Positions 24,939 through 56,584 are shown, counted from the first letter of the stretch. The stretch is DNA of 64,000 bases from Escherichia coli O157:H7 (GCF_013167455.1 NZ_CP038328.1); one strand, 5' to 3'. Program-made: numbers and translations. Notes: a model not told the origin generated them from the sequence alone.

Positions 24939-25458
24939 TCAGCAACCCCGGTATCAGTTCATCCAGCGCGGCTGCTTTGTTCATGGCTTTGATGATATCC
25001 CGTTTCAGGAAATCAACATGTCGGTTTTCCAGTTCCGGAAAACGCCGCTGCACCGACAGGGGGATCCCGTCGAGAATACTGGCAATTTCACCTGCGATCC
25101 GCGACAGCACGAAAGTACAGAATGCGGTTTCCACCACTTCAGCTGAGTCTCTGGCATTCTTCAGTTCCTGTGCGTCGGCCTGCGCACGCGTAAGTCGATG
25201 GCGTTCGTACTCAATAGTCCCTGGCTGGAGATCTGTCTCGCTGTCCTGCCTCAGTTCTTCAACTTCCCGGCGCAGCTTTTCGTTCTCAATTTCAGCATCC
25301 CTTTCGGCATACCATTTTATGGCGGCGGCAGAGTCATAAAGTACCTCATTACCCTTGCCACCACCCCGCAGAACGGGCATTCCCTGCTCCTGCCAGTTCT
25401 GAATGGTACGGATACTCGCGCCGAAAATGTCAGCCAGCTGCTTTTTGTTGACTTCCAT
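24913..25458 (-). CDS. nu1: Terminase small subunit Nu1
   Basis: 181 aa, lambda Nu1-like (MEVNKKQLADIFGASIRTIQNWQ...). Confidence 0.9.
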
Positions 25459-25558
25459 TGTTCATTCCACGGACAAAAACAGAGAAAGGAAACGACAGAG
25501 GCCAAAAAGCCCGTTTTCAGCACCTGTCGTTTCCTTTCTTTTCAGGGGGTGTTTTAAA

Positions 25559-25660
25559 TAAAAACATTAGGTTACGGCGAAGAAGAACGGAAACGCCTTA
25601 AACCGGAAAATTTTCATAAATAGTGAAAAACCGCGAGGTCGCCGCCCCGTAACCTGTCGG
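25559..25660 (-). other. Prophage cos site (cosN 25636..25647 = GGGCGGCGACCT on the minus strand, cosB toward Nu1)
   Basis: Reverse complement matches the recalled lambda left end GGGCGGCGACCTCGCGG...TTTATGAAAATTTTCCGGTTTAAGGCGTTTCCGTTCTTCTTCG. Confidence 0.85.
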
Positions 25661-25846
25661 ATCGCCGGAAAGGACCCGCAAAATGATAATAATTATCATC
25701 TACATGTCACAACGTGCATCTACGCCATCAAACCACGTCAAATAATCAATTATGACGCAGGTATCGTATTAATTGATCCGCATCAACTTAACGTAAAAAC
25801 AACTTCAGACAATACAAATCAGCGACACTGAATACGGGGCAACCTC

Positions 25847-45586: not shown

Positions 45587-45607
45587 ACTACACCATTAAC
45601 TACACCG
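45587..45607 (+). repeat. Satellite att direct repeat, left copy
   Basis: Identical 21-mer to 56564..56584; flanks also similar. Confidence 0.6.
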
Positions 45608-45990
45608 TTCGGTGCACTGTATGAAACAACGTGGAACAAATAGACACAAGAAATATACAGGCGGGTAATCTTTCCAGGGGGAAGCGCACCAATTCATGAG
45701 GGGCGTTAATGTCGATATGGGGATCCCCATAACGGGGCTACCGGATTTTTTTTCCGGTTAACTGTTAATCAGGCTGGTGGGTTTTACCTGTTCGGTAGGT
45801 GTTATGATTATCGTAATACCTTTCCCCCAGTGGGGTAAAAGCTCCAACCGTAACGATGTTCGTTGTGGTTGCCTTGATGGTCTGCGTGGTCATTATGACC
45901 ATTCAGAATATGAAGGGTGACGCTTCCGACTTCCTCAAATTGAGGTTTCCGAAAATATCAGCGGGTTAGCGATTAATCTGACCATTAATT

Positions 45991-46013
45991 AAACTACGAA
46001 AATTTCGTAGTTT
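45991..46013. other. Perfect palindrome AAACTACGAAAATTTCGTAGTTT
   Basis: Read in sequence, ~90 bp downstream of the last satellite ORF; possible terminator or operator. Confidence 0.4.
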
Positions 46014-46100
46014 GTGAATATATTCCGGCCTTCTGATTAACAGTCCTCAGATGTGAGGATGTAGCCAGCGCAATTTTGCGTTATCGGGAATATCAGCAAG

Positions 46101-46382
46101 TTACCGCCGCAGCCGTTCCGGCTTCTTCCAGTGGTACGTTATTTTTTCTTTCTCCCGATACAGTTCAACGCGGCGATTGTAGGCCAGCATTTCAAGAACG
46201 CGGTTCCGTATGTTGCGCATATCAACGCCATTAAGTTCTATACCATCACGGCGCATCACTTCCGCTACAACACGCACATAATTTTCAGCGGTCACGCTGT
46301 CCGGCTGTGTGGCCTGTTCGTCATGCTGCTGGCTGATTCCGGCGACGCGGCGGATTAATCCCAGTAGTTCGGCTTCTGTCAT
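46101..46382 (-). CDS. Hypothetical protein, satellite, cos-proximal
   Basis: 93 aa ORF starting just left of cos copy A. Confidence 0.4.
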   Translation of the reverse strand: MTEAELLGLIRRVAGISQQHDEQATQPDSVTAENYVRVVAEVMRRDGIELNGVDMRNIRNRVLEMLAYNRRVELYREKEKITYHWKKPERLRR

Positions 46383-46416
46383 TGTGCCCCCATCGCTCTG
46401 ATAGTCTGGTGTCGTC

Positions 46417-46464
46417 GGGTCCTTCCTGGAATTATGGCCCGTTACGGGGCGGCGACCTCGCGGT
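46417..46464 (+). repeat. Satellite cos copy A (cosN GGGCGGCGACCT at 46448..46459), followed by a lambda-cosB-like tract to ~46637
   Basis: 48-bp inverted repeat with 47309..47356; downstream TTTATGAGAATTTTCCGG resembles the lambda left end. Confidence 0.8.
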
Positions 46465-46637
46465 TTTTATCTGTTTATGAGAATTTTCCGGCAAAAGTCA
46501 GATCCGATCTTCTTCTCTGTAACAGACTGTTTAACAATGAAAATATTAAAAAAAGAAAGGATCTGACACGAGGCATTTTAGCCAGAAAATGCCATTATCA
46601 GATCCTTTCTCATTTTTGTTCAATAATTGCGCGTCTG

Positions 46638-47180
46638 TTACTCGCCTTTCTTCTGTAGCAACTTTTCCGGTACGTTTCCGGTTGTTTCTTTCAAGTAATC
46701 AGCCAGTATCTGTGGGAGGTTGTCGGCAACTCTGGCACTGGCATTACAGGCTTTAACCACTTCCCTTTTAAGCCTGTCCAGCATGGCGGGGGTAATCTGT
46801 GGGAAGCTCCTTTGCATAGTAAGCGGGAGGCTGTCCATGATTGATGAAATCTGACTCGCCAGCTTTGAAAGCGCGTACAGGCAAAACTCAGTATCAATCA
46901 CGTCACCGCGATCGCGATCGTTTTTAAGTTCCTGCGCCTCTGCCTGTGCTGTCAGTAATCTGATCCTGACTCGTAAAAGTTCATCATCGTCAATCTCGCC
47001 TTTGTCGTTTATAAGCTGGCTAATTGCATTGTTAACCCTATTTTCTATCACGCTGGCAACATCATAAAACGCCTCACGGCCTTTACGCTCAACGGGAGTT
47101 ACTCCCCACTTGTCGAACGCTGTCGCACTTACACGGCAGCTTTTCGCCATGTTTTTTTTGTTCATCAGATGAGATTTCAT
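46638..47180 (-). CDS. Terminase small subunit homologue (Nu1-like), satellite-encoded
   Basis: 180 aa; C-terminal region aligns with the prophage Nu1 in this window (LTAQAEAQELKNDRDRGDVIDTEFCLYALSKLASQISSIMDSLPLTMQRSFPQ vs LTRAQADAQELKNARDSAEVVETAFCTFVLSRIAGEIASILDGIPLSVQRRFPE). Confidence 0.75.
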   Translation of the reverse strand: MKSHLMNKKNMAKSCRVSATAFDKWGVTPVERKGREAFYDVASVIENRVNNAISQLINDKGEIDDDELLRVRIRLLTAQAEAQELKNDRDRGDVIDTEFCLYALSKLASQISSIMDSLPLTMQRSFPQITPAMLDRLKREVVKACNASARVADNLPQILADYLKETTGNVPEKLLQKKGE

Positions 47181-47308
47181 TAATACACCAACTTAATTAC
47201 TGCTTCAGGTTGGTGTATTGCTTGCATCTTTCCCTTTTCATTCATAAAGATAGATCAAACAACAAAACCACCACCACCACCCTGAAAAGGCTCATAAATA
47301 GCGAAAAT

Positions 47309-47356
47309 CCGCGAGGTCGCCGCCCCGTAACGGGCCATAATTCCAGGAAGGACCCG
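47309..47356 (-). repeat. Satellite cos copy B (cosN complement at 47314..47325), inverted relative to copy A
   Basis: Exact 48-bp reverse complement of 46417..46464; first 23 bp also identical to the prophage cos at 25631..25653. Confidence 0.8.
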
Positions 47357-47357
47357 T

Positions 47358-47379
47358 AAAAAAGCCGGATTTCTCCGGC
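47358..47379 (-). terminator. Intrinsic terminator, copy 1 of a repeated satellite hairpin
   Basis: AAAAAAGCCGGATTTCTCCGGC; on the minus strand a hairpin plus T6 just after the stop of 47386..47799. Confidence 0.55.
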
Positions 47380-47385
47380 CTTGTC

Positions 47386-47799
47386 TCAGATGGTTTTCAG
47401 TATGCGATCGATGTCGCCGTCATCGCCCTGGTTTCTGCCATCGTATGCCATGCCAGCTGATACGGCTTGCGGGCTGTGCATGTCCATAAAGTTTTCAAAG
47501 GCTGCGGTAAGTTCCGGCGCAACCTTCGGACGTTCCTGCTCTATGGTCATGCTAAGGATGCTTTTAGCCGTACCAACATCGATACAAGGCACGTTTGCCA
47601 TTGCACGCAACAGCGGCTGATAGTCTTTATGCTCATGAAGCGCCATAATCGCATCAGCGCACGGCTTGTCCTGCTCTTCCAGTTTGTTTAGTTGATATAC
47701 GGCCTCATAGGTTGATAAACCTCTGTCAGCCATTGCCCGCGCTTCGACTTTAAATTTACTCGCCAGCGGTAGCGTCATGATGCTTTCATTCGTTGCCAT
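47386..47799 (-). CDS. Hypothetical protein in the satellite capsid module
   Basis: 137 aa, downstream of the D-like gene. Confidence 0.4.
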   Translation of the reverse strand: MATNESIMTLPLASKFKVEARAMADRGLSTYEAVYQLNKLEEQDKPCADAIMALHEHKDYQPLLRAMANVPCIDVGTAKSILSMTIEQERPKVAPELTAAFENFMDMHSPQAVSAGMAYDGRNQGDDGDIDRILKTI

Positions 47800-47811
47800 C
47801 GTTCCCCCTGC

Positions 47812-48147
47812 TTATCGGGCCAGCGGCTGAACGGATACGCCGGAACCCGCAAAGGCGGCGCATTTTTTCGCATCGGTGTCGACGCTCTCAGGCCAGTTAA
47901 CGGCGGCAATATTGAATATCCCCGTCTTGTAACACTGTGCTGATTTCTGCTTTGACGTGTCCACAGGGTACGAGGTCAGATAAACAGCCTTGCCAGATTC
48001 CTGACCATCCCACGGCTTAAACTCGCCATTGTCTGCCAGCATCAGCGGGGTAAATTCCTGAATAACGCCAGCATCAGCGGCAAAATGTACCAACGTCGTG
48101 GATACCTGCTGACTGCCTGCAAATAACTCAATGTATGGAGTGTCCAT
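47812..48147 (-). CDS. Head decoration protein homologue (gpD-like), satellite-encoded
   Basis: 111 aa; C-terminus KKCAAFAGSGVSV vs prophage [15 protein letters not shown]. Confidence 0.65.
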   Translation of the reverse strand: MDTPYIELFAGSQQVSTTLVHFAADAGVIQEFTPLMLADNGEFKPWDGQESGKAVYLTSYPVDTSKQKSAQCYKTGIFNIAAVNWPESVDTDAKKCAAFAGSGVSVQPLAR

Positions 48148-48159
48148 AGAATCCCCCCG

Positions 48160-49215
48160 TTAACCAATTTTGACGGTAACAAATTTGCGAATATCTGCCG
48201 GTACCGGCTGCGGTGCACTGTGTGTCTGCACGTACTCAATCGCCGGATCGCCGTCCTCAATCCAGTTTTTCGGGTAAAACATGTTTTGTGTTGCGCCCGT
48301 TCTTACCGCTTCCTGATCCATTATCGCACCATAGGCCACCAGCCCTTTATTGTTGGTGTTACCCAGGACCAGCAAATCAGGCTCAAGGAAATATTTTTCG
48401 GTACCATCGCTGTCAGTGTATTTGCCGGAATAGACGATAAGGGCCAGATCACCAAGATAGCCTTTAAAGCTCACCACTTCGCCCAGGTTTTTACAGGCCA
48501 GTTCGGCGGCGGATTCTGAACCACGGGAAAGATCGTACAGCTCACGGAATTTTTTAAAGCTGCGTAATGTGCGCCATACCTCAGCGCCCATAATCATGAC
48601 GTTTGCGGGGCAACCAGCCTGATCAGCATAAAGCTCGATGTCATAGATTGGGTCGTGCATGTCTTTATCCTGCTCGGACCATTTTTTACCCTTGGCCTGC
48701 TCTATGATGCAGTTTTCCGGTATTTTCCAGTCGATTTCATAGCGTTCTATGCCTTCGCCCTCAATGATGTTTTTTCCGGTCGTTACCGCATTCACCGCCA
48801 GCCATTCCACGCGTGCCTTAATGGCGTTTATCTGGCGGCGCATGTTGCCAGTAATCAGGCGCATACGGCGATAGGTAGGGTCGTTAAGCTGTGCCGGATC
48901 TTCTCCAGCCATGCGCATGATGGTTTTCGTTGGATCGATTTCGTGCTTTGGCTTCATGTAGCCAGGTTTGATTGTGCTGGTTTCGTACCCTTTATCGCGC
49001 TGAACCTGGCTACCCACCATAGGCGAACAAAACGCCGACATGGTGACTTCTTCAATGTCCAGGGTATCCAGCATGATGTTTTGCGTGCTGAATGTCGCCA
49101 CGTTCGGGAAAAACAGCGTGGTAAACAGAGGGCTGAATTTAAAATCCGCAATATCCCCGCGATTCAGGTACATGAAAAGCTGGTTAGTGTTAAGTGCCGT
49201 TGCTTTGCCTGCCAT
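48160..49215 (-). CDS. Major capsid protein homologue (gpE-like), satellite-encoded
   Basis: 351 aa; alignable along its length with prophage gpE (e.g. KPGYMKPKHEIDP vs TPGYVKPKHEVNP; YPKNWIEDGDPAIEY vs YPKNWVTTGDPAREF). Confidence 0.85.
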   Translation of the reverse strand: MAGKATALNTNQLFMYLNRGDIADFKFSPLFTTLFFPNVATFSTQNIMLDTLDIEEVTMSAFCSPMVGSQVQRDKGYETSTIKPGYMKPKHEIDPTKTIMRMAGEDPAQLNDPTYRRMRLITGNMRRQINAIKARVEWLAVNAVTTGKNIIEGEGIERYEIDWKIPENCIIEQAKGKKWSEQDKDMHDPIYDIELYADQAGCPANVMIMGAEVWRTLRSFKKFRELYDLSRGSESAAELACKNLGEVVSFKGYLGDLALIVYSGKYTDSDGTEKYFLEPDLLVLGNTNNKGLVAYGAIMDQEAVRTGATQNMFYPKNWIEDGDPAIEYVQTHSAPQPVPADIRKFVTVKIG

Positions 49216-49454
49216 TATTCACCCCCATAATTTTTATGCATCCCAAGCGCCGCAAGTAAATAAGAGCGTACAAGTGAACCTATCGACGGCTCCGGCGTCA
49301 TCAGCGGATCCAGTCCAGCCGCAACGCCAGCTTCATAGTTTTTTTTGTGGCGCTGCTTGAGCACCTCCACGATTTCGGGGCTTATGTACACCGAAACACC
49401 GCTTTTTTTCTCTTCAGCCATAGTAAGAAATTCCTCTTCGACTAAAAAAATCAT
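49215..49454 (-). CDS. Hypothetical small protein upstream of the capsid gene
   Basis: 79 aa ORF, stop overlaps the capsid start; possible internal start at MAEEKK. Confidence 0.35.
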   Translation of the reverse strand: MIFLVEEEFLTMAEEKKSGVSVYISPEIVEVLKQRHKKNYEAGVAAGLDPLMTPEPSIGSLVRSYLLAALGMHKNYGGE

Positions 49455-49586
49455 AACTGGATGTTTATCCAGTCCTGATTATAATCAGAATTGCATTTTA
49501 TGCAATGATATTGAGTTATGTTGCAAATTATGAAATGATTATCCCGATCACGAACGCCAGTGCATCCAAAAACCTCATATGCAAAA

Positions 49587-49624
49587 GCCCGATAAGAACC
49601 CTCTGACCTTATCGGGCTTTTTTT
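49587..49624 (+). terminator. Plus-strand intrinsic terminator, convergent with the satellite operon
   Basis: GCCCGATAAG-n11-CTTATCGGGC followed by T7. Confidence 0.5.
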
Positions 49625-49630
49625 GGGCGC

Positions 49631-49652
49631 AAAAAAGCCGGATTGCTCCGGC
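49631..49652 (-). terminator. Intrinsic terminator, copy 2 of the repeated hairpin
   Basis: AAAAAAGCCGGATTGCTCCGGC just after the stop of 49673..49897. Confidence 0.55.
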
Positions 49653-49672
49653 TATGTGTGCTGTGTGCTGGC

Positions 49673-49897
49673 TCAGTCTCTGATCTCTTTCAGAAATTCT
49701 ATCAATGCATCTATCTGTTCAGGATTTACCGCCAGCATTTCACCGGATAGAGCACATCTCACAAAACCATGCTGATCCTTTTCAATCAGTGCGCCCGTCT
49801 CCAGGAATGCGCGGTAATCATTGATGCTCATCGTCTCCATGTTGTCAGCATGGTATTTATCACGCTGTTTTAATATCTCATCAAATTTCATCGGCAT
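49673..49897 (-). CDS. Hypothetical protein
   Basis: 74 aa ORF with its own terminator. Confidence 0.35.
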   Translation of the reverse strand: MPMKFDEILKQRDKYHADNMETMSINDYRAFLETGALIEKDQHGFVRCALSGEMLAVNPEQIDALIEFLKEIRD

Positions 49898-49993
49898 TGT
49901 TTTTTTCCTCTGTTGTGTCTGTTTGTTTCAGATAGTAACTATGCCTGACCGTGACGAAAACCCGGTAATGCGCCATACCGTTTCAACTGGTGC

Positions 49994-50016
49994 AAAAAAA
50001 GCCGGATTTCTCCGGC
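49994..50016 (-). terminator. Intrinsic terminator, copy 3 of the repeated hairpin
   Basis: AAAAAAAGCCGGATTTCTCCGGC just after the stop of 50024..50296. Confidence 0.55.
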
Positions 50017-50023
50017 TGTTTGA

Positions 50024-50296
50024 TTAGCTGTCCTGGTAATTGCGCCATATTTCATCACCAGCACCATCTATACCCATTTCGGCATAAGTGCGATCGACTG
50101 CCTTTTTCAGGTCTCCGAAATTATCCGGCGGCTCCGGTGCCCTCTGTGCCTTCCTTGAACATTCCAGCCGTCGCATCGTGATGTGATGCCGTTCCTTGTC
50201 TGTCTCCACCAGCTGCATGACTTCACCCCATCGCGCCGCCGCCCTCCGGTAAAAGCCTTTCGCCTCCAGTTCCTCCGCTATGCGGTCATGTACCAT
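50024..50296 (-). CDS. Small regulator, possibly PerC-family (family assignment tentative)
   Basis: 90 aa from MVHDRIAEELEAKGFYRRAAARWGEVM...; resemblance to PerC/Pch is from memory only. Confidence 0.35.
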   Translation of the reverse strand: MVHDRIAEELEAKGFYRRAAARWGEVMQLVETDKERHHITMRRLECSRKAQRAPEPPDNFGDLKKAVDRTYAEMGIDGAGDEIWRNYQDS

Positions 50297-50306
50297 CGTC
50301 ACCCCC

Positions 50307-50717
50307 TCAGAACGAAATATCATCACCGTAAGGGTCATCGCCTCCCGCTGGTGGCTGATTACCCTGTGTGCCTGTGGTTTTGCGTCTGTTCCCGCCTGGA
50401 CGTGCCGCGCGGGCACTGATTACGCTGTCTGCGATAACCTGCCAGCCCTGCCGCGTTTCTCCGTTCTGTCCGGTCCACTGGCTTACCTGCATCGTGCCGG
50501 ATACGCTGGCAACATCGCCTTTTTGATGTTTAGCCAGGAAGCCGGCCTGTTTGCCAAATGCGATGACCGATAACCATAACGTCGCCTGTCCGTCCTGTGC
50601 CTGGCTGCATGGCAAAGATACCGCCATACGCGCCAGCGTCATCGGTGTGCCCTTGCTGGTCTGTTTTACCTGCGGGTCGTCCACCAGCCGCCCGTAAGCG
50701 GCTATCTGTGCCGTCAT
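50307..50717 (-). CDS. ssb: Single-stranded DNA-binding protein
   Basis: 136 aa, Gly/Gln-rich linker and acidic C-terminal tail ...DDPYGDDISF. Confidence 0.75.
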   Translation of the reverse strand: MTAQIAAYGRLVDDPQVKQTSKGTPMTLARMAVSLPCSQAQDGQATLWLSVIAFGKQAGFLAKHQKGDVASVSGTMQVSQWTGQNGETRQGWQVIADSVISARAARPGGNRRKTTGTQGNQPPAGGDDPYGDDISF

Positions 50718-50995
50718 AATTCCACCTCTCCGGTTTTAACGTTGATGGTTGTTACCTGTTCCGCTTCGGCAATCTCCCGTTCTGTCAGCGTGGCAAAGTT
50801 TGCCGCCGCCGTGGTCATGAATGCGCTTATCAGGTCGGGATGTTCCTTCGCGTATCCTTCCCGCGTGTGGCGGTCTATCGTTCTGATTGCCACCTTTAAG
50901 GTGTGCTCAGTCATGTCTAACGCTTTATATTTTGGCTCTGTTCTGTCTCTGCGTTTTTGGGTCATTTCTCGCAACCTCTCACTTTTTCGCCTCAC
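50714..50995 (-). CDS. Hypothetical protein
   Basis: 93 aa ORF immediately downstream of the iteron region. Confidence 0.35.
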   Translation of the reverse strand: MRRKSERLREMTQKRRDRTEPKYKALDMTEHTLKVAIRTIDRHTREGYAKEHPDLISAFMTTAAANFATLTEREIAEAEQVTTINVKTGEVEL

Positions 50996-51167
50996 TTTTT
51001 CAAGCGTCTCACTTCGTCGCAGTTGGGATTTTCGGTTTTTCTATGTGTGTGTTTCATAAGTATTTTTTTACCCCTCACTTTTGAGGATGTATACAGGTCG
51101 AAAAGTGAGGGAGAGCGGGCTAATTTTGGCCCTCTTTCTATCCCCCTCGCTTTTGCTCCTCACTTTT
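50978..51167. repeat. Putative satellite replication origin: at least six CTCACTTTT-type iterons in both orientations
   Basis: Copies at 50978, 50991, 51008 (variant), 51074, 51101 (inverted), 51146 (variant), 51159; directly 3' of rep. Confidence 0.55.
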
Positions 51168-52566
51168 ATAGCGGCGCTACATCATCCCCATCGATACGAA
51201 TAACCCCATCTTTTTCCAGCTTGTACAGCCAGCGCCGGAAGTTTTTCATTTCATACCCCAGCTTTTTCATGTCATCACGTAACAGCGGGATCGTGCACTT
51301 GTCGCCGTTCTGTGTGCGTGAACGGATGCACCCCCATAGCGCGGTATGGTTTTCCGTCTTGTTCCCTGCCTCCTCGATGCGCTCCAGTTCAACAGGAGGG
51401 CGCGGATCATCCACCACCACCAGCGACGTGATTAATTCACCGTCAGCGTCGGTAAAAAGCTCCACCACGCGTAAGTCATATGCGGCTTCTTTGAGTTCCT
51501 CCGCGTCCTTCATTTTGGTGCATGAGATAACCAGCGCTTCGCTTCCTGCGTCCTCCCTGCGTATCCGGTATTCAGCATCCAGCGAAGCACGAAATGCACT
51601 GGAACCGCGCGCGCCTTTCGTCTCATCCTTGCCGGAATGGTGAACCACCAGCACCGTGGCCCCTGTGCGTCGTTTCAGTTCGTCACAACCACGGATAAAC
51701 GCCCCCATATCACGGGAATCATTTTCATCATTCCCACCAAAGCAACGCGCCAGCGTATCCAGAATAATCATGCGTACAGGTTTACCCGTTTCCCGCTCCA
51801 CCTGACGGGCAGCGATAACCATTTCATCAACATCAAGCGGGGCAGCCGGAAAGATGGGGCGGTTTACCAGATACAGATTTTTCACCTGCTCATCGTGCAC
51901 AACCTCCCAGGCTTTTACACGACGCGGAACACCTATACCGCCTTCACCAACCACATAGAGAACCGCACCATGTGCAACCCTGCGGCCTCCCCACTGGCGA
52001 CCAGTGGCAACATGGCACGCCCACGATCCGGCAAGGAATGATTTATAGGACCCGCTAGCCCCGTATATGCTGCATAGCGATACCGCCGGAATAATCCCCT
52101 TAACCACGTAATCCAGTTGCGTGTCGTATCCGGTAGATCCAACGCTCATCGGTAGCGTGGTTTTTCGCTGGTGGTTTTTTTCTTCCGCCGGCTCTTTCCC
52201 GCGCACCCGTTCCAGGTATTCGCGCCAGTTCTCCCGCATATGGCTGTGCATCCCTTCGGGGTAATAATTCGCATCAGTTACACCCGCCGCCGCCAGCTTG
52301 TGCGCAATGGCATTAATATTTGATGGCCTGATGTGGCCTGCCTTGTACAGCCGGACACAATAGCGCCCCTCGTCGATGATTCTCAGTTCTGCCAGTTCAT
52401 CCAGTTGATCATCAGCCAGCACAACGGGAGGCACATTATCGCCAGCCAGTCGCCCGTCCTGTTCCTGCCACTGTTTCGCATGTGCCCAGGCATCACTACC
52501 CGCAAAAATAATGACTTCGGTCATCTTGTCGTAAGGCTGTTTTTTTAAGTTCGGTGCGCTTTTCAT
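51166..52566 (-). CDS. Replication protein, RecA-fold P-loop ATPase (RepA/AAA_25-like helicase)
   Basis: 466 aa; Walker A-like GASGSYKS and Walker B-like RMIILDTLA; upstream of iterons. Confidence 0.65.
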   Translation of the reverse strand: MKSAPNLKKQPYDKMTEVIIFAGSDAWAHAKQWQEQDGRLAGDNVPPVVLADDQLDELAELRIIDEGRYCVRLYKAGHIRPSNINAIAHKLAAAGVTDANYYPEGMHSHMRENWREYLERVRGKEPAEEKNHQRKTTLPMSVGSTGYDTQLDYVVKGIIPAVSLCSIYGASGSYKSFLAGSWACHVATGRQWGGRRVAHGAVLYVVGEGGIGVPRRVKAWEVVHDEQVKNLYLVNRPIFPAAPLDVDEMVIAARQVERETGKPVRMIILDTLARCFGGNDENDSRDMGAFIRGCDELKRRTGATVLVVHHSGKDETKGARGSSAFRASLDAEYRIRREDAGSEALVISCTKMKDAEELKEAAYDLRVVELFTDADGELITSLVVVDDPRPPVELERIEEAGNKTENHTALWGCIRSRTQNGDKCTIPLLRDDMKKLGYEMKNFRRWLYKLEKDGVIRIDGDDVAPL

Positions 52567-52862
52567 TTCTTGCCCCTGAATCCGTTAACCATGGTTTTCA
52601 GCTTCTGGATGTTTGCCCGTGCCCTGGCGTTGCTGGTGGGCACGTTATGCGGCGCGGTCTGTACCAGAGAAAAATCACGCCGGAACTGATAAACAGGCAT
52701 CACGCAATCATATTCGTAACCTTCACGGCGGTAGGTTACGCGCCGTTCTTCCACGCCCTTAATCATTACCGTGCCGCCGTACTGGTCGCGGTAAATATCA
52801 CCGCGCGTAAATTTAGGGTGAGTGTTGCCACTGGCAGTTAAGCCAGAATATTTAAGTTTCAT
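52563..52862 (-). CDS. Hypothetical protein
   Basis: 99 aa, stop overlaps rep start. Confidence 0.35.
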   Translation of the reverse strand: MKLKYSGLTASGNTHPKFTRGDIYRDQYGGTVMIKGVEERRVTYRREGYEYDCVMPVYQFRRDFSLVQTAPHNVPTSNARARANIQKLKTMVNGFRGKK

Positions 52863-52867
52863 TATTT

Positions 52868-53101
52868 TTATTCTCCGGTGTGCTGTTCTTTATATCTGTC
52901 GTGCAATAGATCTATTTCTTGCAGTTCCATTATTACAGGCTCAAGAAGCGTTATTAATGCCGTGGCAATTCTTGATTTTTGTTTGTCGCGTTCATTGTCG
53001 CCAAGTGTTTCAAGCCATATGCGCAATATTTCCATCATGTTTTCACTGTGAGAAAGTGCAAGAAATGCGCGGTCTATTGTTTGGTGGTAAATATCACGCA
53101 T
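52868..53101 (-). CDS. Hypothetical protein
   Basis: 77 aa, tightly packed in the operon. Confidence 0.3.
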   Translation of the reverse strand: MRDIYHQTIDRAFLALSHSENMMEILRIWLETLGDNERDKQKSRIATALITLLEPVIMELQEIDLLHDRYKEQHTGE

Positions 53102-53558
53102 GGCTTACATCCTCAGGAAATTTTCTTCTATAACGCGCCTCTGCCACATATTCCGCATAATCGGCGGCGATATTCAGTACATCAAGCCCCGTTGATTTAT
53201 ATTCTCTCGTGGAAAGTAAGAAAAAAGCCGCTCTAATAAGTTCTGGCATTGACGAAAGCGCATCAGCCGCATCATCAGGAACGCCGGAAAATTCCTGTTT
53301 CAGGGAATTAAAACGATCATCACGCATAACCCCCCCATTTTCACAATCAGCAATCAGGATAGCTTTGGCCTCATTCAGCGCCGTATCAGCACTAAATTGC
53401 ATGACAGCCAGTGAGTGAGGAACGAAAGCACCGGCATATTCTGTTTCGCTGGTGGCGTGCTTATGTGCCCTGTCCGCGATAACAGAAATATCAATCAGCG
53501 CGTGCATCAGCGTTTTGATGGCTTCGGCGGCTGCGTCCGGTGTGGTTTTATTGTGCAT
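53094..53558 (-). CDS. Hypothetical protein
   Basis: 154 aa, overlapping neighbours on both sides. Confidence 0.4.
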   Translation of the reverse strand: MHNKTTPDAAAEAIKTLMHALIDISVIADRAHKHATSETEYAGAFVPHSLAVMQFSADTALNEAKAILIADCENGGVMRDDRFNSLKQEFSGVPDDAADALSSMPELIRAAFFLLSTREYKSTGLDVLNIAADYAEYVAEARYRRKFPEDVSHA

Positions 53559-53760
53559 AAAGCATCCCCTGAATATTCGTGTTAATCATTCCGGCACGTT
53601 TTGTGATTTCCTGTAATGATTCCCTTGTGGCGACAATTGCTTCATCTGGTAAGTGGTAATTACACACCACGCGACCTTTATCCACATTGACCAGTAGCTG
53701 CCCTGTGAATTTCTCACGAAACTGAATGCGGTTAAGGTCAGTAAGTGACAGATTAATCAT
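53548..53760 (-). CDS. Hypothetical protein
   Basis: 70 aa from MINLSLTDL...; RBS AGGAGG; ATGATTAA overlap with the upstream gene. Confidence 0.35.
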   Translation of the reverse strand: MINLSLTDLNRIQFREKFTGQLLVNVDKGRVVCNYHLPDEAIVATRESLQEITKRAGMINTNIQGMLYAQ

Positions 53761-53950
53761 GGCGCACCTCCTGACGAATACGGGCGGCAAATACAGCAAC
53801 ACAACCGGACGGGCAACGGTTACGCGCTTCGCGTTCCGTCCAGGCGGTTACGTGGATGATTTGAGATTCTCCGGCACTCAGTGCCAGAAAACGCCACACA
53901 AAGGCCGTTTGTGTGTGTACAAGGTGTGGTATATGATTTACGGCAACCAT
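53753..53950 (-). CDS. Hypothetical protein, first gene of the satellite leftward operon
   Basis: 65 aa from MVAVNHIPHL...; RBS GGAG 5 nt upstream. Confidence 0.35.
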   Translation of the reverse strand: MVAVNHIPHLVHTQTAFVWRFLALSAGESQIIHVTAWTEREARNRCPSGCVAVFAARIRQEVRHD

Positions 53951-54040
53951 AACGGCTCCTAGTTTACGTTGTTGGTTAGACGCCCCGTATGTGTTCCCAG
54001 CACTGCGGGGCGTTGATTTTTGTGTAATGGCAAGTACAAT

Positions 54041-54080
54041 GGTAATTACCATGTAGGTATAGCAATAAAGGGTAATTACC
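54041..54080. promoter_or_regulatory. Two perfect 10-bp palindromes GGTAATTACC, 30 bp apart, in the divergent control region
   Basis: Copies at 54041..54050 and 54071..54080, each followed by ATGT; the second abuts the RHH start codon. Confidence 0.5.
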
Positions 54081-54254
54081 ATGTCAACACCATTAGAAAA
54101 ACGTTCGCCTCCATACCAAATGCGATTACCGGAAGACTTCAGAGCGCAGCTAGAAGAAGCTGCTAAGGCCGATGGCGACACATCTTTAGCCACTTGGATT
54201 AAACGCGTTCTCCGCAAAGAATTACAGCAACGCGGCATAGAACCCAAAGGATAA
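54081..54254 (+). CDS. Ribbon-helix-helix (Arc/MetJ-like) DNA-binding protein
   Basis: 57 aa by manual translation (MSTPLEKRSPPYQMRLPEDFRAQLEEAAKADGDTSLATWIKRVLRKELQQRGIEPKG); below the ORF-track cutoff. Confidence 0.5.
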   Translation: MSTPLEKRSPPYQMRLPEDFRAQLEEAAKADGDTSLATWIKRVLRKELQQRGIEPKG

Positions 54255-54296
54255 AAACTATCAGCGCCGTGGTGTGAGGTATTACGGCGCATTGCT

Positions 54297-54485
54297 ATGC
54301 AGGACAACACAATGACCGATAAAGAATTGACCAAAACATTATCACCGGCACGGAAAAGACGGCGCAGAAAGATAGAGCATGAATCAGAAAGATTCGCGCC
54401 ATGTGCTTTTGCCCTTGAGCAATTCCTTAAAGAGTACAGGGAAACGCGCCCATTGCAGGTATGGCAACGAACTGAACCAGACTGA
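54297..54485 (+). CDS. Hypothetical small basic protein
   Basis: 62 aa with KRRRRK; downstream of the RHH gene, before the + strand terminator. Confidence 0.3.
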   Translation: MQDNTMTDKELTKTLSPARKRRRRKIEHESERFAPCAFALEQFLKEYRETRPLQVWQRTEPD

Positions 54486-54578
54486 TAGCATTGCCCACCA
54501 GCCTGATAGCGGCTATCATCCCCGTGCTTATGTTTGGGATCATATACACATAAGGCGCAGCGGGTTATCTGTTCAGAA

Positions 54579-54608
54579 AGGCGGCTCCATTTCGGGGCCG
54601 CTTTTTTT
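54579..54608 (+). terminator. Intrinsic terminator closing the RHH transcription unit
   Basis: GCGGCTCC-ATTTC-GGGGCCGC followed by T7. Confidence 0.5.
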
Positions 54609-54754
54609 ATGCCTGAAAAACCCCAATTTTGTGGTTTTCCAGTCTCACCAGGGCGAACGAATCCCCGCCCACGTTCTGGCGTATATTCAATCTTCATGGT
54701 TATAGCTCTGTGTTCAGATGATTGATGTGTGGCGGCTGTGTGCCGCCAGCGTGA

Positions 54755-54943
54755 TTAATGAACTGCCTTGCAGCTATCCTTCCAGGCCAGAACCTCGGAT
54801 AAAGACCAGCCAACGGAACGACCGCCAAGTTTACGACGTGATGGGAATTGTCCGGCCTTTTCCAGGCGGTAGCGACACGTACGGCTAAGGCCGGTTAGTT
54901 TTTCGCATTCTTTTTCACGTATAAACCGATCAGTGCTTAACAC
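54755..54943 (-). CDS. alpA: AlpA-family transcriptional regulator (excisionase-like)
   Basis: 62 aa; pattern ...LTGLSRTCRYRLEKAGQFP...GGRSVGWSLSEVLAW typical of AlpA. Confidence 0.75.
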   Translation of the reverse strand: MLSTDRFIREKECEKLTGLSRTCRYRLEKAGQFPSRRKLGGRSVGWSLSEVLAWKDSCKAVH

Positions 54944-55307
54944 TATTGCCCCCTTTCGTTTCTTAAAGAGTCATCAGGTGTCTTATTGTGTCGTATTGTT
55001 CCCGCTAGAGTGATGAATGGCAAATACTGAGGATGTATGATTTACAGAAAATGAAAAAGTAAGAATAAAATCTTTTAAATTCATGTTAATACAAAGGCAT
55101 AAAATATTGTTCCATGCCTTTTTTCTCGCTCTTTAAAGAGTGATTCGCTAGTGTATAAAAAACCAGTAACACATTAAAAATCAGCTACTTATAAATCCGT
55201 ACGCTTTTTCGCCTCTTGTTCGTAGTTGTTCCACATTGTTGCTCATTGTTGCACGTTGTATCTGTTCGCATATCCAGTATGCGCATACTGAAAAAACACG
55301 AAAAAAA

Positions 55308-56558
55308 TTATTTTCTTCTGGCTACTGGTAGCGTGGTTACGTTTTCATGTGTTCCCGCCAGTATCCCTAACCGCTCCGTCCACATATCCAGCGCATTGCG
55401 TTTCGCATCCAGATAACGGGAATGATTATAAACTCGCTGCATTCCTGGCATCTGGTGGCCTGTAAGCTGCTCCACGACATGCGGATCAACGCCTAAATCG
55501 TTCAGCATGGTTGTAAAGGTGCGCCGGATGTCATGCAGTGACCAGTGAGGGTGATTAAGCCTCCTGTGCGCTAATCTTCCATACTGCGATACGCTGGCCT
55601 CCTGTTTCACTTCCCCCAGCAATAAGCCCGTGTGCCTGTTCTGCTCCACCAGCTGCGTGATGAACGGCAGTATTGCTTCCGGTATAGGCCGGAATATGGC
55701 TACCTTCGTTTTGCTGTGCTCCTTCGGAACGGTCCAGAGCATTTCGGTAAAATCCCACTCGCTGATCTCCGATAACCTCAGTTCTACCGTCCGGCATCCG
55801 AACACAATCAGGAGGCGGATTAACGCGATGTAGTAGGGGGAGAATATTTTTTTGTCCAGTGCCTGCAATAATTCGCCCAGTTCTTTGGTGCTTAAGACAC
55901 GCTCGCTTATATCCGGTTTTTTCCCAACGTCCGCCACACTCATATCATCAAGAACGTTGCTGATTGCATAGCGCCGCCTCCGGCAGAACTTAAGCGCCTG
56001 TTTGCACGTCTGTAGCAAGAATCCGGCAGTAACAGGCGTTCGCTTTGCCACCTGGTCAAAACAGGCCAGCCAGTGCCGTAGCTCGCATTTATCCAGCGGC
56101 ATAGCACCAATGTGCTGTATTACGTGATTATTAAGGCGCTTTTTCAGGGCGGCATAATCCACGCGGTTTTCCTTTGCGTACGACTCAAGCCAGTAGGTGA
56201 GCGCATCGCCAACCGTTACCGGCTTTAACGCTTCCTGTACGGTGTAATTAAGCTCATGACGTGGATTTTTCCCCTCTGCCAGCCATGCGCGACACTGGGC
56301 GGCTTTTTCCCTGGCTGATTTCAGGCTCAGATCAGGATAATTTCCCAGCTTAATGCGTTCCGGTGGTGCCCCCCTTCCCGTTCCGGCCCTGTAAGTGAAA
56401 TACCAGGTTAAAAGGCCACTGGTTGAATGCCTGACGCTCAGGTTTCCACCGTCATTAAGAAAGGCTGTTTTTTGGGCGGGTGTGCCGTTGATTTTCCTCA
56501 GCTGTGTATCGCTCAGTTTGTTAAGTGCTCTGCTCATAATTTTGATTCCGGTCATCAC
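55308..56558 (-). CDS. int: Tyrosine integrase (P4/satellite-type)
   Basis: 416 aa; C-terminal catalytic residues; adjacent to the right att repeat. Confidence 0.9.
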   Translation of the reverse strand: MMTGIKIMSRALNKLSDTQLRKINGTPAQKTAFLNDGGNLSVRHSTSGLLTWYFTYRAGTGRGAPPERIKLGNYPDLSLKSAREKAAQCRAWLAEGKNPRHELNYTVQEALKPVTVGDALTYWLESYAKENRVDYAALKKRLNNHVIQHIGAMPLDKCELRHWLACFDQVAKRTPVTAGFLLQTCKQALKFCRRRRYAISNVLDDMSVADVGKKPDISERVLSTKELGELLQALDKKIFSPYYIALIRLLIVFGCRTVELRLSEISEWDFTEMLWTVPKEHSKTKVAIFRPIPEAILPFITQLVEQNRHTGLLLGEVKQEASVSQYGRLAHRRLNHPHWSLHDIRRTFTTMLNDLGVDPHVVEQLTGHQMPGMQRVYNHSRYLDAKRNALDMWTERLGILAGTHENVTTLPVARRK

Positions 56559-56563
56559 AATTA

Positions 56564-56584
56564 ACTACACCATTAACTACACCG
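56564..56584 (+). repeat. Satellite att direct repeat, right copy (preceded by a tandem ATTAACTACACC unit)
   Basis: Identical 21-mer to 45587..45607. Confidence 0.6.

What the first reader, a model, noticed from the sequence alone, without database searches (positions are those of the whole stretch)
46417..47356. Two inverted 48-bp cos copies flanking the satellite terS
The 48-mer CCGCGAGGTCGCCGCCCCGTAACGGGCCATAATTCCAGGAAGGACCCG occurs at 47309..47356 and as an exact reverse complement at 46417..46464, ~850 bp apart, bracketing the Nu1-like gene. Both contain the lambda cosN 12-mer, and the first 23 bp equal the prophage cos at 25631..25653. Copy A has a lambda-cosB-like tract but terS is convergent to it; copy B is co-oriented with terS but has a different spacer with an 11-bp inverted repeat (AATACACCAAC) at the terS start. 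This could be an invertible packaging switch, a dual-cos device, or a recombination scar.
Basis: seen in the sequence. Interest (0 to 1): 0.7.

Follow-up and report, generated by a model that had tools for sequence, protein, structure and literature searches.

The report
Two inverted cos sites in satellite
An 11-kb phage satellite in E. coli O157:H7 has two opposed DNA-packaging (cos) sites around its own small-terminase gene. A sister island is already known to have two functional cos sites, and comparison with relatives suggests one site serves the satellite's terminase and the other copies a helper phage's site.

Summary
Each arm holds cosQ, the lambda cosN 12-mer and the start of cosB. The arms flank a full-length Nu1-family terS.

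The host element is an 11-kb PICI-type satellite at the phoQ/roxA site. EcCICFT073 sits at the same site with the same layout, but with rppA in place of terS. Copy B matches its published cos1 and copy A its cos2; both were shown functional in 2018-2019. The two-cos device is therefore already known.

What appears not to be published:
- The two sites are inverted.
- Copy A is a complete lambda-type cos (R3-I1-R2-R1). Its R boxes match a real phage family (SerU-LTIIb), and other islands carry other phage box types at that position.
- The TerS DNA-binding domain tracks the upstream co-oriented cos, not copy A.
- The cos-bounded module lies in the opposite orientation in 5 of about 490 E. coli genomes, from two island lineages.

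A programmed switch is not supported: there is no adjacent invertase, and no flip was found among the O157-lineage genomes. A dead scar is also unlikely.

Verdict: a new variant of a known kind, of moderate interest.

The parts
45587..56584 (-). Satellite island (PICI type, about 11 kb) between phoQ and roxA, bounded by a 21-bp direct repeat ACTACACCATTAACTACACCG. Contains int, alpA-like HTH, RepA-type helicase, ssb, perC, MCP, Dec, a 137-aa gene, terS and a 93-aa gene.
   Evidence: Annotation of an identical O157:H7 record, direct repeat, same site and layout as EcCICFT073.
46416..46463 (+). Copy A, exact 48-nt arm: cosQ GGGTCCT 46417-46423, 23-nt spacer, cosN 46447-46458, then CGCGG. Equivalent to EcCICFT073 cos2. 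Its polarity would direct packaging rightwards in the window.
   Evidence: Mapped to cos2 through supplementary Fig. S1A of PMC6739421 and the CFT073 sequence.
46459..46620 (+). cosB of copy A: I2-like tract, R3-like CAGATCCGATCTTCTTC (46499-46515), I1-like spacer, R2-like inverted AAAGAAAGGATCTGAC (46552-46567), R1-like CAGATCCTTTCTC (46599-46611). Collinear with lambda cosB but with different box sequences.
   Evidence: Repeats I2 and I3, alignment with lambda-type and other phage cos sites, boxes nearly identical to SerU-LTIIb prophage cosB.
46638..47180 (-). Satellite terS, 180 aa, full-length Nu1 family. The likely true start is the second ATG (M6).
   Evidence: Pfam Phage_Nu1 E 9.5e-22. 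PHROG 57 E 8e-53. 36% identity to lambda Nu1 over the full length, E 1e-33. Best phage relative only 44% identical. No similarity to RppA.
47181..47313 (-). cosB of copy B (cos1 type): I2-like TTTTCGCTATTTATGAGC, a GGTGGTGGTGGTGG tract (47268-47282) at the R3-equivalent position, conserved blocks, and the 11-bp inverted repeat 47182-47192 / 47209-47219 next to the terS start.
   Evidence: Conserved across 51 unique relatives. R3-PICI position as proposed in PMC9026076.
47309..47356 (-). Copy B, exact 48-nt arm: cosQ 47349-47355, cosN 47314-47325. Equivalent to EcCICFT073 cos1. Co-oriented with terS, so its polarity would direct packaging leftwards in the window.
47358..47381 (-). Terminator-like hairpin GGCCGGAGAAAUCCGGC followed by U6, directly between the 137-aa gene stop and cosQ of copy B.
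   Evidence: Fold -18 kcal/mol, z -4.5. Conserved in relatives.
47386..47799 (-). Conserved 137-aa flank gene (PHROG 1999), with weak similarity to the C-terminal part of head-maturation protease profiles.
   Evidence: Same gene in CFT073.
46101..46382 (-). Conserved 93-aa flank gene (PHROG 1561).
25455..25678 (-). cos (cosQ, cosN 25636-25647, lambda R3/R2/R1) of the resident lambda-like prophage, followed by a lambda-type Nu1 gene. This prophage is a candidate helper and has the same cosN as both satellite copies.

Best explanation
The region is the packaging module of an EcCICFT073-family phage satellite. It consists of two complete lambda-type cos sites in opposite polarity with the satellite's own small-terminase gene between them.

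Copy B (47281-47356, equivalent to cos1) is the satellite's primary site. The Nu1-like TerS made from the adjacent gene binds copy B's satellite-specific cosB. Through its Nu1-type C-terminal region it recruits the large terminase of a lambda-like helper. That enzyme nicks the lambda-identical cosN and packages concatemeric satellite DNA starting through terS. Packaging ends at the next copy B, which carries cosQ in the correct polarity.

Copy A (46416-46620, equivalent to cos2) is a captured phage cos with a full R3-I1-R2-R1 cosB. Its boxes belong to a different lambdoid terminase specificity, the SerU-LTIIb type. A helper carrying that TerS could therefore package the island directly, in the opposite direction.

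Opposite polarity lets the two initiators coexist. A motor that starts at one site meets the other from its cosB side, which by lambda rules is not a termination substrate. No terS-deleted or terS-duplicated chromosomes would then be produced.

The identical arms reflect shared functional constraint on cosQ, cosN and I2, plus gene conversion in the O157 lineage. As a by-product, the arms allow rare inversion and exchange of the module.

What is shown: the anatomy, the homology to cos1/cos2, the covariation and the orientation polymorphism. What is inferred: which protein binds which site, the direction of packaging and the rationale for inversion.
For: 1. Same att site, flank genes and two inverted cosN sites in EcCICFT073. 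Its cos1 and cos2 sequences match positions B and A. Both were shown functional, and cos1 is the site used with RppA (PMC6092414, PMC6739421).

2. All 80 IMG/VR relatives of this TerS have the upstream co-oriented cos with a conserved cosB. The downstream cos is variable, truncated or absent.

3. The TerS DNA-binding region is nearly invariant across the cos2 variants, and identical TerS proteins occur with both alpha and beta boxes.

4. In strain RM10466 the terS N-terminal 112 aa are phage-type (PhiR5_1-like). There the upstream cos carries PhiR5_1-type R boxes, while the downstream cos keeps alpha boxes. This is a natural domain swap linking the DNA-binding domain to the upstream site.

5. 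Copy A aligns collinearly with phage cos sites. Its boxes match SerU-LTIIb phage cosB (R3 17/18, R2 20/21, R1 11/12), which there sits directly upstream of a phage terS. The beta and gamma variants resemble PhiR5_1 and CFT073 phage 4.

6. TerS is a full-length Nu1 homologue, including the C-terminal region aligned to the part of Nu1 that binds gpA.

7. 22 of 25 rppA-type islands also have both sites inverted, and in some the two sites carry different cosN sequences.
Against: No experiment exists for this island. Binding of TerS to copy B's cosB is inferred from co-occurrence only.

In EcCICFT073, deleting cos2 increased transfer by lambda and phi80, so cos2 can be costly with those helpers.

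A spread of 40 of the 692 E. coli records matching the SerU-LTIIb cosB/terS region listed no O157:H7 strain. The search was not exhaustive, but copy A may have no cognate helper in this host.

Many relatives do without cos2.

The rule that an inverted cos is ignored during termination comes from established lambda knowledge. It was not tested here.
Confidence: 0.6

Rival explanations
1. Programmed invertible switch. The 845-bp segment flips at appreciable frequency to change packaging direction or terS expression, as in the Mu G, P1 C or Hin segments.
For: Inverted repeats bound the segment. Both orientations exist among natural islands: 5 genomes, two lineages. The arms are perfectly homogenised in the O157 lineage.
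Against: No invertase gene is in or next to the segment; the only recombinase is the island integrase about 8 kb away. No flipped copy appears among the 218 records that carry this region at >=99% identity. In most islands the perfect repeat is only 21-37 nt and is simply cosN plus its constrained flanks. The segment carries its own upstream region behind a terminator-like hairpin, and both cos sites are unchanged by a flip, so there is no obvious on/off output.
Confidence: 0.05
2. Copy A is a non-functional duplication or recombination scar left by module exchange.
For: Many relatives lack it or keep only a truncated remnant (joint GGGCGGCG|GTTACTC in L047-L056). Deleting cos2 raised EcCICFT073 transfer in the laboratory.
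Against: Copy A keeps every lambda cos sub-site in the correct order and spacing. At least five different intact cassettes occupy the same position, several matching real phage cosB types. EcCICFT073 cos2 supports plasmid transduction, and residual island transfer remains after cos1 deletion. In most islands the two arms are not recent copies of each other, because their cosQ-cosN spacers differ.
Confidence: 0.1
3. Copy A acts mainly as a decoy or interference element. A multicopy phage-type cosB would soak up helper TerS or terminase, or provoke unproductive cleavage. This would lower helper yield rather than serve satellite packaging.
For: The R boxes are phage-type and swappable. The site sits on a replicating element. 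Rpp-type islands are known to interfere at the TerS step (PMC6739421).
Against: A functional phage-type cos would also be packaged, so the decoy and backup-cos roles are hard to separate. No interference phenotype was attributed to cos2 in the published work. Cleavage at both sites of one unit would also damage the satellite.
Confidence: 0.15
4. The inverted pair drives bidirectional in-situ packaging (lateral transduction) of both chromosomal flanks, phoPQ-purB on one side and roxA-pepT on the other.
For: The two sites point outwards in opposite directions relative to each other.
Against: cos systems need a terminal cos to finish packaging and are stated not to perform lateral transduction (PMC12829572). 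Copy A points into the island, not directly into the flank.
Confidence: 0.03

Closest known systems
cos1 and cos2 of the E. coli PICI EcCICFT073 (Fillol-Salom et al. 2018 ISME J; 2019 Mol Cell)
   Same: Same chromosomal att site, same flank genes (137-aa and 93-aa ORFs, MCP, Dec), and the same two cosQ-cosN units in inverted orientation around one small gene. Copy B aligns with cos1 and copy A with cos2.
   Different: The intervening gene here is a full-length Nu1-type terS (180 aa) rather than rppA (144 aa), with no similarity between them. The cos2-type cosB has different R boxes (CAGATCC... versus ATGTCCGGTT...). The arms are homogenised to 48 identical nt here, against 25 nt in CFT073. The papers do not mention the inverted arrangement or R repeats in cos2.
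Bacteriophage lambda cos (cosQ-cosN-cosB with I2, R3, I1, R2, R1) and Nu1
   Same: Copy A is collinear with lambda cos over about 200 bp, with an identical cosN and cosQ heptamer. TerS is a Nu1 homologue.
   Different: The R-box sequence differs (AGATCC versus CGTTTCC). The gene following R1 is convergent, not co-oriented. Copy B has no recognisable lambda-type R boxes.
cosB of lambdoid prophage SerU-LTIIb (KU052038)
   Same: The R3, R2 and R1 boxes are nearly identical to those of copy A and in the same order.
   Different: In the phage the boxes precede a phage-type terS in the same orientation, and its cosN and spacer differ (GGGTCTGGGGAC-type).
cos-type staphylococcal islands SaPIbov5 and SaPIbov4, and TerS-encoding pac SaPIs
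   Same: These satellites either carry a helper-type cos or encode their own TerS to redirect helper packaging. SaPIbov4 is said to have two putative cos sites.
   Different: Unrelated sequences and hosts. SaPI TerS works with pac (headful) packaging. No inverted dual-cos module has been described for them.
Invertase-driven invertible segments (Mu G, P1 C, Salmonella Hin)
   Same: A short segment bounded by inverted repeats and found in both orientations in nature.
   Different: No invertase gene is present. The repeats are packaging sites. Flips are rare and fixed within lineages.

Membership tests
lambda-type cos site (copy A) | cosN 12-nt cohesive-end sequence | tested here: met
   GGGCGGCGACCT at 46447-46458, identical to lambda and to the resident prophage.
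lambda-type cos site (copy A) | cosQ heptamer GGGTCCT upstream of cosN at lambda-like spacing | tested here: met
   46417-46423, 23 nt before cosN, the same spacing as in the lambda-like prophage.
lambda-type cos site (copy A) | cosB with three R boxes (R3 forward, R2 inverted, R1 forward) around an I1 spacer | tested here: met
   Boxes at 46499-46515, 46552-46567 (inverted) and 46599-46611. Collinear with lambda in alignment A1. The TAAC..TG..TTT core of the I1 region is invariant in all six aligned cos sites.
lambda-type cos site (copy A) | Cleavage by terminase and cos-dependent packaging | not testable with these tools
   Shown only for the homologous EcCICFT073 cos2 (PMC6092414).
lambda-type cos site (copy B) | cosQ, cosN and I2-like tract | tested here: met
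   47349-47355, 47314-47325, then TTTTCGCTATTTATGAGC.
lambda-type cos site (copy B) | lambda-type R3/R2/R1 boxes | tested here: not met
   No repeated R boxes. Instead there is a GGTGGTGG tract at the R3-equivalent position plus conserved satellite-specific blocks. The same conclusion was reached for PICI cos in PMC9026076.
EcCICFT073-type PICI (Gram-negative cos PICI) | Integrase, alpA-like regulator and primase/helicase replication module, about 10 kb, unidirectional genes, att site not used by prophages | tested here: met
   Annotation of an identical record and the att repeat. Same site as EcCICFT073.
EcCICFT073-type PICI (Gram-negative cos PICI) | Rpp protein that redirects helper TerS | tested here: not met
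   The gene at that position is a Nu1-family TerS with no BLASTP similarity to RppA. The island works like the family but uses a different redirecting protein.
EcCICFT073-type PICI (Gram-negative cos PICI) | Induction, excision and transfer by a helper phage | not testable with these tools
   No experimental data for this island.
Nu1-family small terminase | Phage_Nu1 domain and full-length alignment, including the C-terminal region aligned to Nu1's TerL-binding part | tested here: met
   PF07471 E 9.5e-22. 36% identity to lambda Nu1, residues 6-166 against 3-180.
Site-specific invertible segment | Adjacent invertase or recombinase gene | tested here: not met
   Only terS lies inside the segment. 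The neighbours are structural genes and small ORFs.
Site-specific invertible segment | Both orientations present within one lineage or population | tested here: not met
   No flip among the 218 records carrying this region at >=99% identity. Flips occur only in two diverged lineages. Within-culture heterogeneity cannot be tested with assemblies.

The most novel reading that the evidence does not exclude
The inverted dual-cos module may be a two-specificity, bidirectional packaging device that widens the satellite's helper range. One site would be read by the satellite's own TerS (or Rpp) together with helper TerL. The other would be a swappable copy of a helper phage's own cos.

The module's inversion and exchange between islands may be driven by terminase itself. 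Cutting both inverted cosN sites releases a fragment with two identical 12-nt cohesive ends, which can re-anneal in either orientation or into another island. That would be a recombinase-independent route to DNA inversion and cassette exchange. In both inverted islands the exchange point maps to the <=28-nt shared stretch that contains cosN.
Probability: 0.15. Interest if true: 0.65.

Novelty: new variant of a known kind. Interest (0 to 1): 0.45.

Why it matters
PICI satellites move virulence and defence genes among enterobacteria, and which helper phages can package them sets their host range. The published work on EcCICFT073 left cos2 unexplained: it is functional, dispensable, and even costly with lambda and phi80.

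The comparison here offers a concrete, testable explanation. cos2 would be a captured, exchangeable phage-type cos with intact R boxes for other terminase specificities. It is held in inverted polarity so that it does not interfere with termination at cos1.

The analysis also shows that the O157:H7 island at this site uses a full Nu1-type TerS instead of Rpp. That gives a second solution to the same packaging-redirection problem within one island family.

If the terminase cut-and-flip idea held, it would be a new way of rearranging DNA.

Tried and rejected
1. A PDB sequence search with TerS gave no significant hit, neither to RppC nor to the Nu1 N-terminal domain. The divergent DNA-binding domain therefore could not be modelled by homology.

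2. The consensus promoter/terminator scan found nothing useful and missed the clear hairpin after the 137-aa gene. That hairpin was confirmed by folding instead.

3. The 11-bp inverted repeat at the terS start folds well (z -3.8). Only its left arm (ACACCAACCTGAA) is conserved in relatives and the right arm drifts. I therefore do not treat it as a conserved hairpin or operator.

4. I looked for a recent same-lineage flip. Strain RM10466 has flanks 98-98.5% identical to an inverted island (blastn), but it carries a different, chimeric terS module, so it is not a clean flip.

5. I looked for a resident O157 prophage with alpha-type boxes. The SerU-LTIIb-type cosB/terS region covers >=80% of the query in 38 genomes, and none of the 40 listed records was O157:H7. 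The search was not exhaustive.

6. The lateral-transduction reading was rejected on published grounds.

7. I did not run structure prediction, the large protein searches or the genome-contig scan. The IMG/VR and E. coli collections already answered the architectural questions.

Full report
**Observation**

The 48-mer CCGCGAGGTCGCCGCCCCGTAACGGGCCATAATTCCAGGAAGGACCCG occurs exactly twice in the window. One copy is at 47309-47356 on the + strand. The other, its reverse complement, is at 46416-46463. None occurred in 100 shuffles.

Without gaps the repeat extends to 76 nt at 91% (46416-46491 / 47281-47356). The lambda cosN 12-mer is present in both arms and once more at 25636-25647. That third copy belongs to a resident prophage whose cos, R boxes and Nu1 gene are almost identical to lambda.

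Each arm begins exactly at the cosQ heptamer GGGTCCT and runs through cosN into the first bases of cosB. The identical part is therefore the part of a lambda cos that the large terminase reads. The two copies diverge where the small terminase would read.

**Context**

The window is E. coli O157:H7. The repeat lies in an island of about 11 kb between phoQ and roxA, bounded by a 21-bp direct repeat.

All island genes are on the - strand: integrase, a small HTH regulator, Icd-like genes, a RepA-type helicase, ssb, perC, a lambda E-like major capsid protein, a D-like decoration protein, a 137-aa ORF, terS and a 93-aa ORF.

terS is a full-length Nu1-family small terminase:
- Pfam Phage_Nu1, E 9.5e-22.
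- 36% identity to lambda Nu1 over the whole length, including the C-terminal region.
- Its best phage relative is only 44% identical.

**This is the published two-cos arrangement**

E. coli CFT073 carries the PICI EcCICFT073 at the same chromosomal site with the same flank genes, but with rppA (144 aa) where terS lies here. CFT073 also has two cosN copies in inverted orientation around that gene.

[quoted passage not shown] Deleting cos1 reduces transfer, deleting cos2 increases it, and deleting both abolishes it (PMC6092414). They also showed that the RppA-TerS complex recognises the cosB of cos1 (PMC6739421).

Their supplementary sequences fix the correspondence. cos1 is the site upstream of and co-oriented with rppA, which is window copy B. 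cos2 is the site next to the 93-aa gene, which is window copy A.

Neither those papers nor the Murialdo and Feiss review mention that the sites are inverted, and the review treats only cos1. [quoted passage not shown]

**What copy A is**

Copy A aligns collinearly with lambda-type phage cos sites over about 200 bp: cosQ, spacer, cosN, I2, R3 (forward), an I1-like spacer, R2 (inverted) and R1 (forward). The box sequence is CAGATCC(G/T)(A/T)TCT instead of lambda's CGTTTCC.

The same boxes occur in the cosB of the lambdoid prophage SerU-LTIIb, matching at R3 17/18, R2 20/21 and R1 11/12. There they sit directly upstream of a phage-type terS.

Among 80 IMG/VR loci encoding this TerS at 80-100% identity, the downstream position is variable:
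- an alpha cassette, as in the window;
- a beta cassette (CATGTCGTTTC boxes, like phage PhiR5_1);
- a gamma cassette, like CFT073 phage 4;
- cassettes with other cosN sequences;
- a truncated remnant;
- nothing at all.

Copy A is thus an intact, exchangeable, phage-type cos, and it is accessory.

**What copy B is**

All 80 relatives have the upstream co-oriented cos. Its cosB is strongly conserved across 51 unique sequences, while cosN itself varies between lineages.

The TerS DNA-binding region is almost invariant whatever cos2 cassette is present, and identical TerS proteins occur with alpha and beta cassettes.

Strain RM10466 provides a natural swap. Its island at the same phoQ site has a chimeric terS whose first 112 residues are phage-type (PhiR5_1-like). 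Its upstream cos carries PhiR5_1-type R boxes, while the downstream cos keeps alpha boxes.

The DNA-binding domain therefore covaries with the upstream cos and not with cos2. This agrees with the RppA/cos1 experiments.

**Orientation**

I built the sequence with the 46464-47308 segment inverted and searched 5,426 complete E. coli genomes. Five genomes carry that configuration, against 487 with the window's configuration.

The five represent two island lineages at different att sites, tqsA and tRNA-Pro/yejM. The two lineages have different integrases and different cos2 cassettes. In both, the flank-specific cosQ-cosN spacers stay with the flanks. The exchange point therefore lies within the <=28 nt that contain cosN.

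No record in the inverted-construct search reached 80% coverage at more than about 91% identity, so none of the 218 records that carry this region at >=99% identity is flipped.

In 29 two-cos loci the perfect repeat is usually 21-37 nt. The 48-nt identity is specific to the O157 lineage, where the cos1 arm carries the spacer type normally found at cos2. That points to gene conversion between the arms.

22 of 25 rppA-type islands also have both sites inverted, and in some the two sites have different cosN sequences.

**Mechanism (inferred)**

The satellite TerS binds copy B's cosB and recruits a lambda-like helper's large terminase to the lambda-identical cosN. Packaging proceeds through terS and round the concatemer to the next copy B.

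Copy A offers a second, independent entry point for helpers whose own TerS reads its boxes, and it packages in the opposite direction.

Lambda termination requires cosQ to be met before cosN; this is established lambda biology and was not tested here. An inverted second cos would therefore be ignored by a motor started at the first. Two direct cos sites would instead yield chromosomes lacking or duplicating terS.

The arms also allow rare inversion and module exchange. This could occur by homologous recombination. Alternatively, terminase could cut both sites, which would leave a fragment with two identical cohesive ends.

**Rivals**

A programmed switch is unlikely: there is no invertase, orientation is fixed within lineages, and a flip has no obvious output. 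A dead scar is unlikely because the anatomy is intact, the cassettes are diverse and phage-matched, and cos2 is functional in CFT073. A decoy role for copy A cannot be excluded. Lateral transduction is unlikely for cos systems.

**Verdict**

The feature is real and functionally meaningful, but its core, two cos sites in this island family, is already published. The new elements are:
- the TerS-for-Rpp substitution;
- the recognition that cos2 is a complete, exchangeable phage-type cos;
- the inverted polarity and a rationale for it;
- natural inversion of the module.

Interest is moderate.

Noticed in passing
L113 (NZ_CP028381.1, strain RM10466) 9370-10400: An island at the same phoQ site carries a chimeric terS: 112 N-terminal residues are phage-type (PhiR5_1-like) and the C-terminus is satellite-type. 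Its upstream cos has phage-type R boxes. This is a natural domain swap within the module.
   Followed up: partly
L057-L067, L073, L077, L083 (upstream cos); L109, L110: cosN itself varies between related islands (GGGCGTCAGGCG, GGGCGGAAGGCG, GGGCGGCAGACG, GGGTAGCCATAC and others) while cosB of cos1 stays constant. In L109 and L110 the two cos sites of one island have different cosN sequences, which suggests matching to different large terminases.
   Followed up: partly
window 47268-47282 versus L002 7603-7615: At the R3-equivalent position (about bp 44-58 from the left end), TerS-type islands have GGTGGTGGTGGTGG. Rpp-type islands have the reverse complement, CACCACCACCAC, at bp 55-65. The significance is unknown.
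   Followed up: no
L047-L056, downstream of terS: cos2 is reduced to cosQ plus half of cosN, joined directly to the terS stop region (GGGCGGCG|GTTACTC). This is a clean deletion of cosB, showing that cos2 was lost secondarily in that lineage.
   Followed up: no
H1 and H2 (NZ_AP026082.1, NZ_CP038398.1); L008 downstream region: In some O157 and related genomes an IS3-family element (IS1203) is inserted in the module. It splits terS (annotated twice) or replaces the cosN-R3 part of copy A.
   Followed up: no
window 47386-47799: The conserved 137-aa ORF next to copy B has weak similarity (E 5e-9) to the C-terminal part of head-maturation protease profiles. That is the region corresponding to the lambda Nu3 scaffold. 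With the E-like and D-like genes, the island may encode capsid-remodelling functions.
   Followed up: no
window 25636-25647 and 47314-47325: The prophage cos and satellite copy B are in the same polarity, 21.7 kb apart on the chromosome. This is probably coincidental. The prophage (integrated next to icd) has lambda-identical cosN, R boxes and Nu1, and is a candidate resident helper.
   Followed up: no
window 47357-47385: A strong terminator-like hairpin lies directly between the 137-aa gene and cosQ of copy B and is conserved in relatives. The consensus terminator scan missed it.
   Followed up: partly
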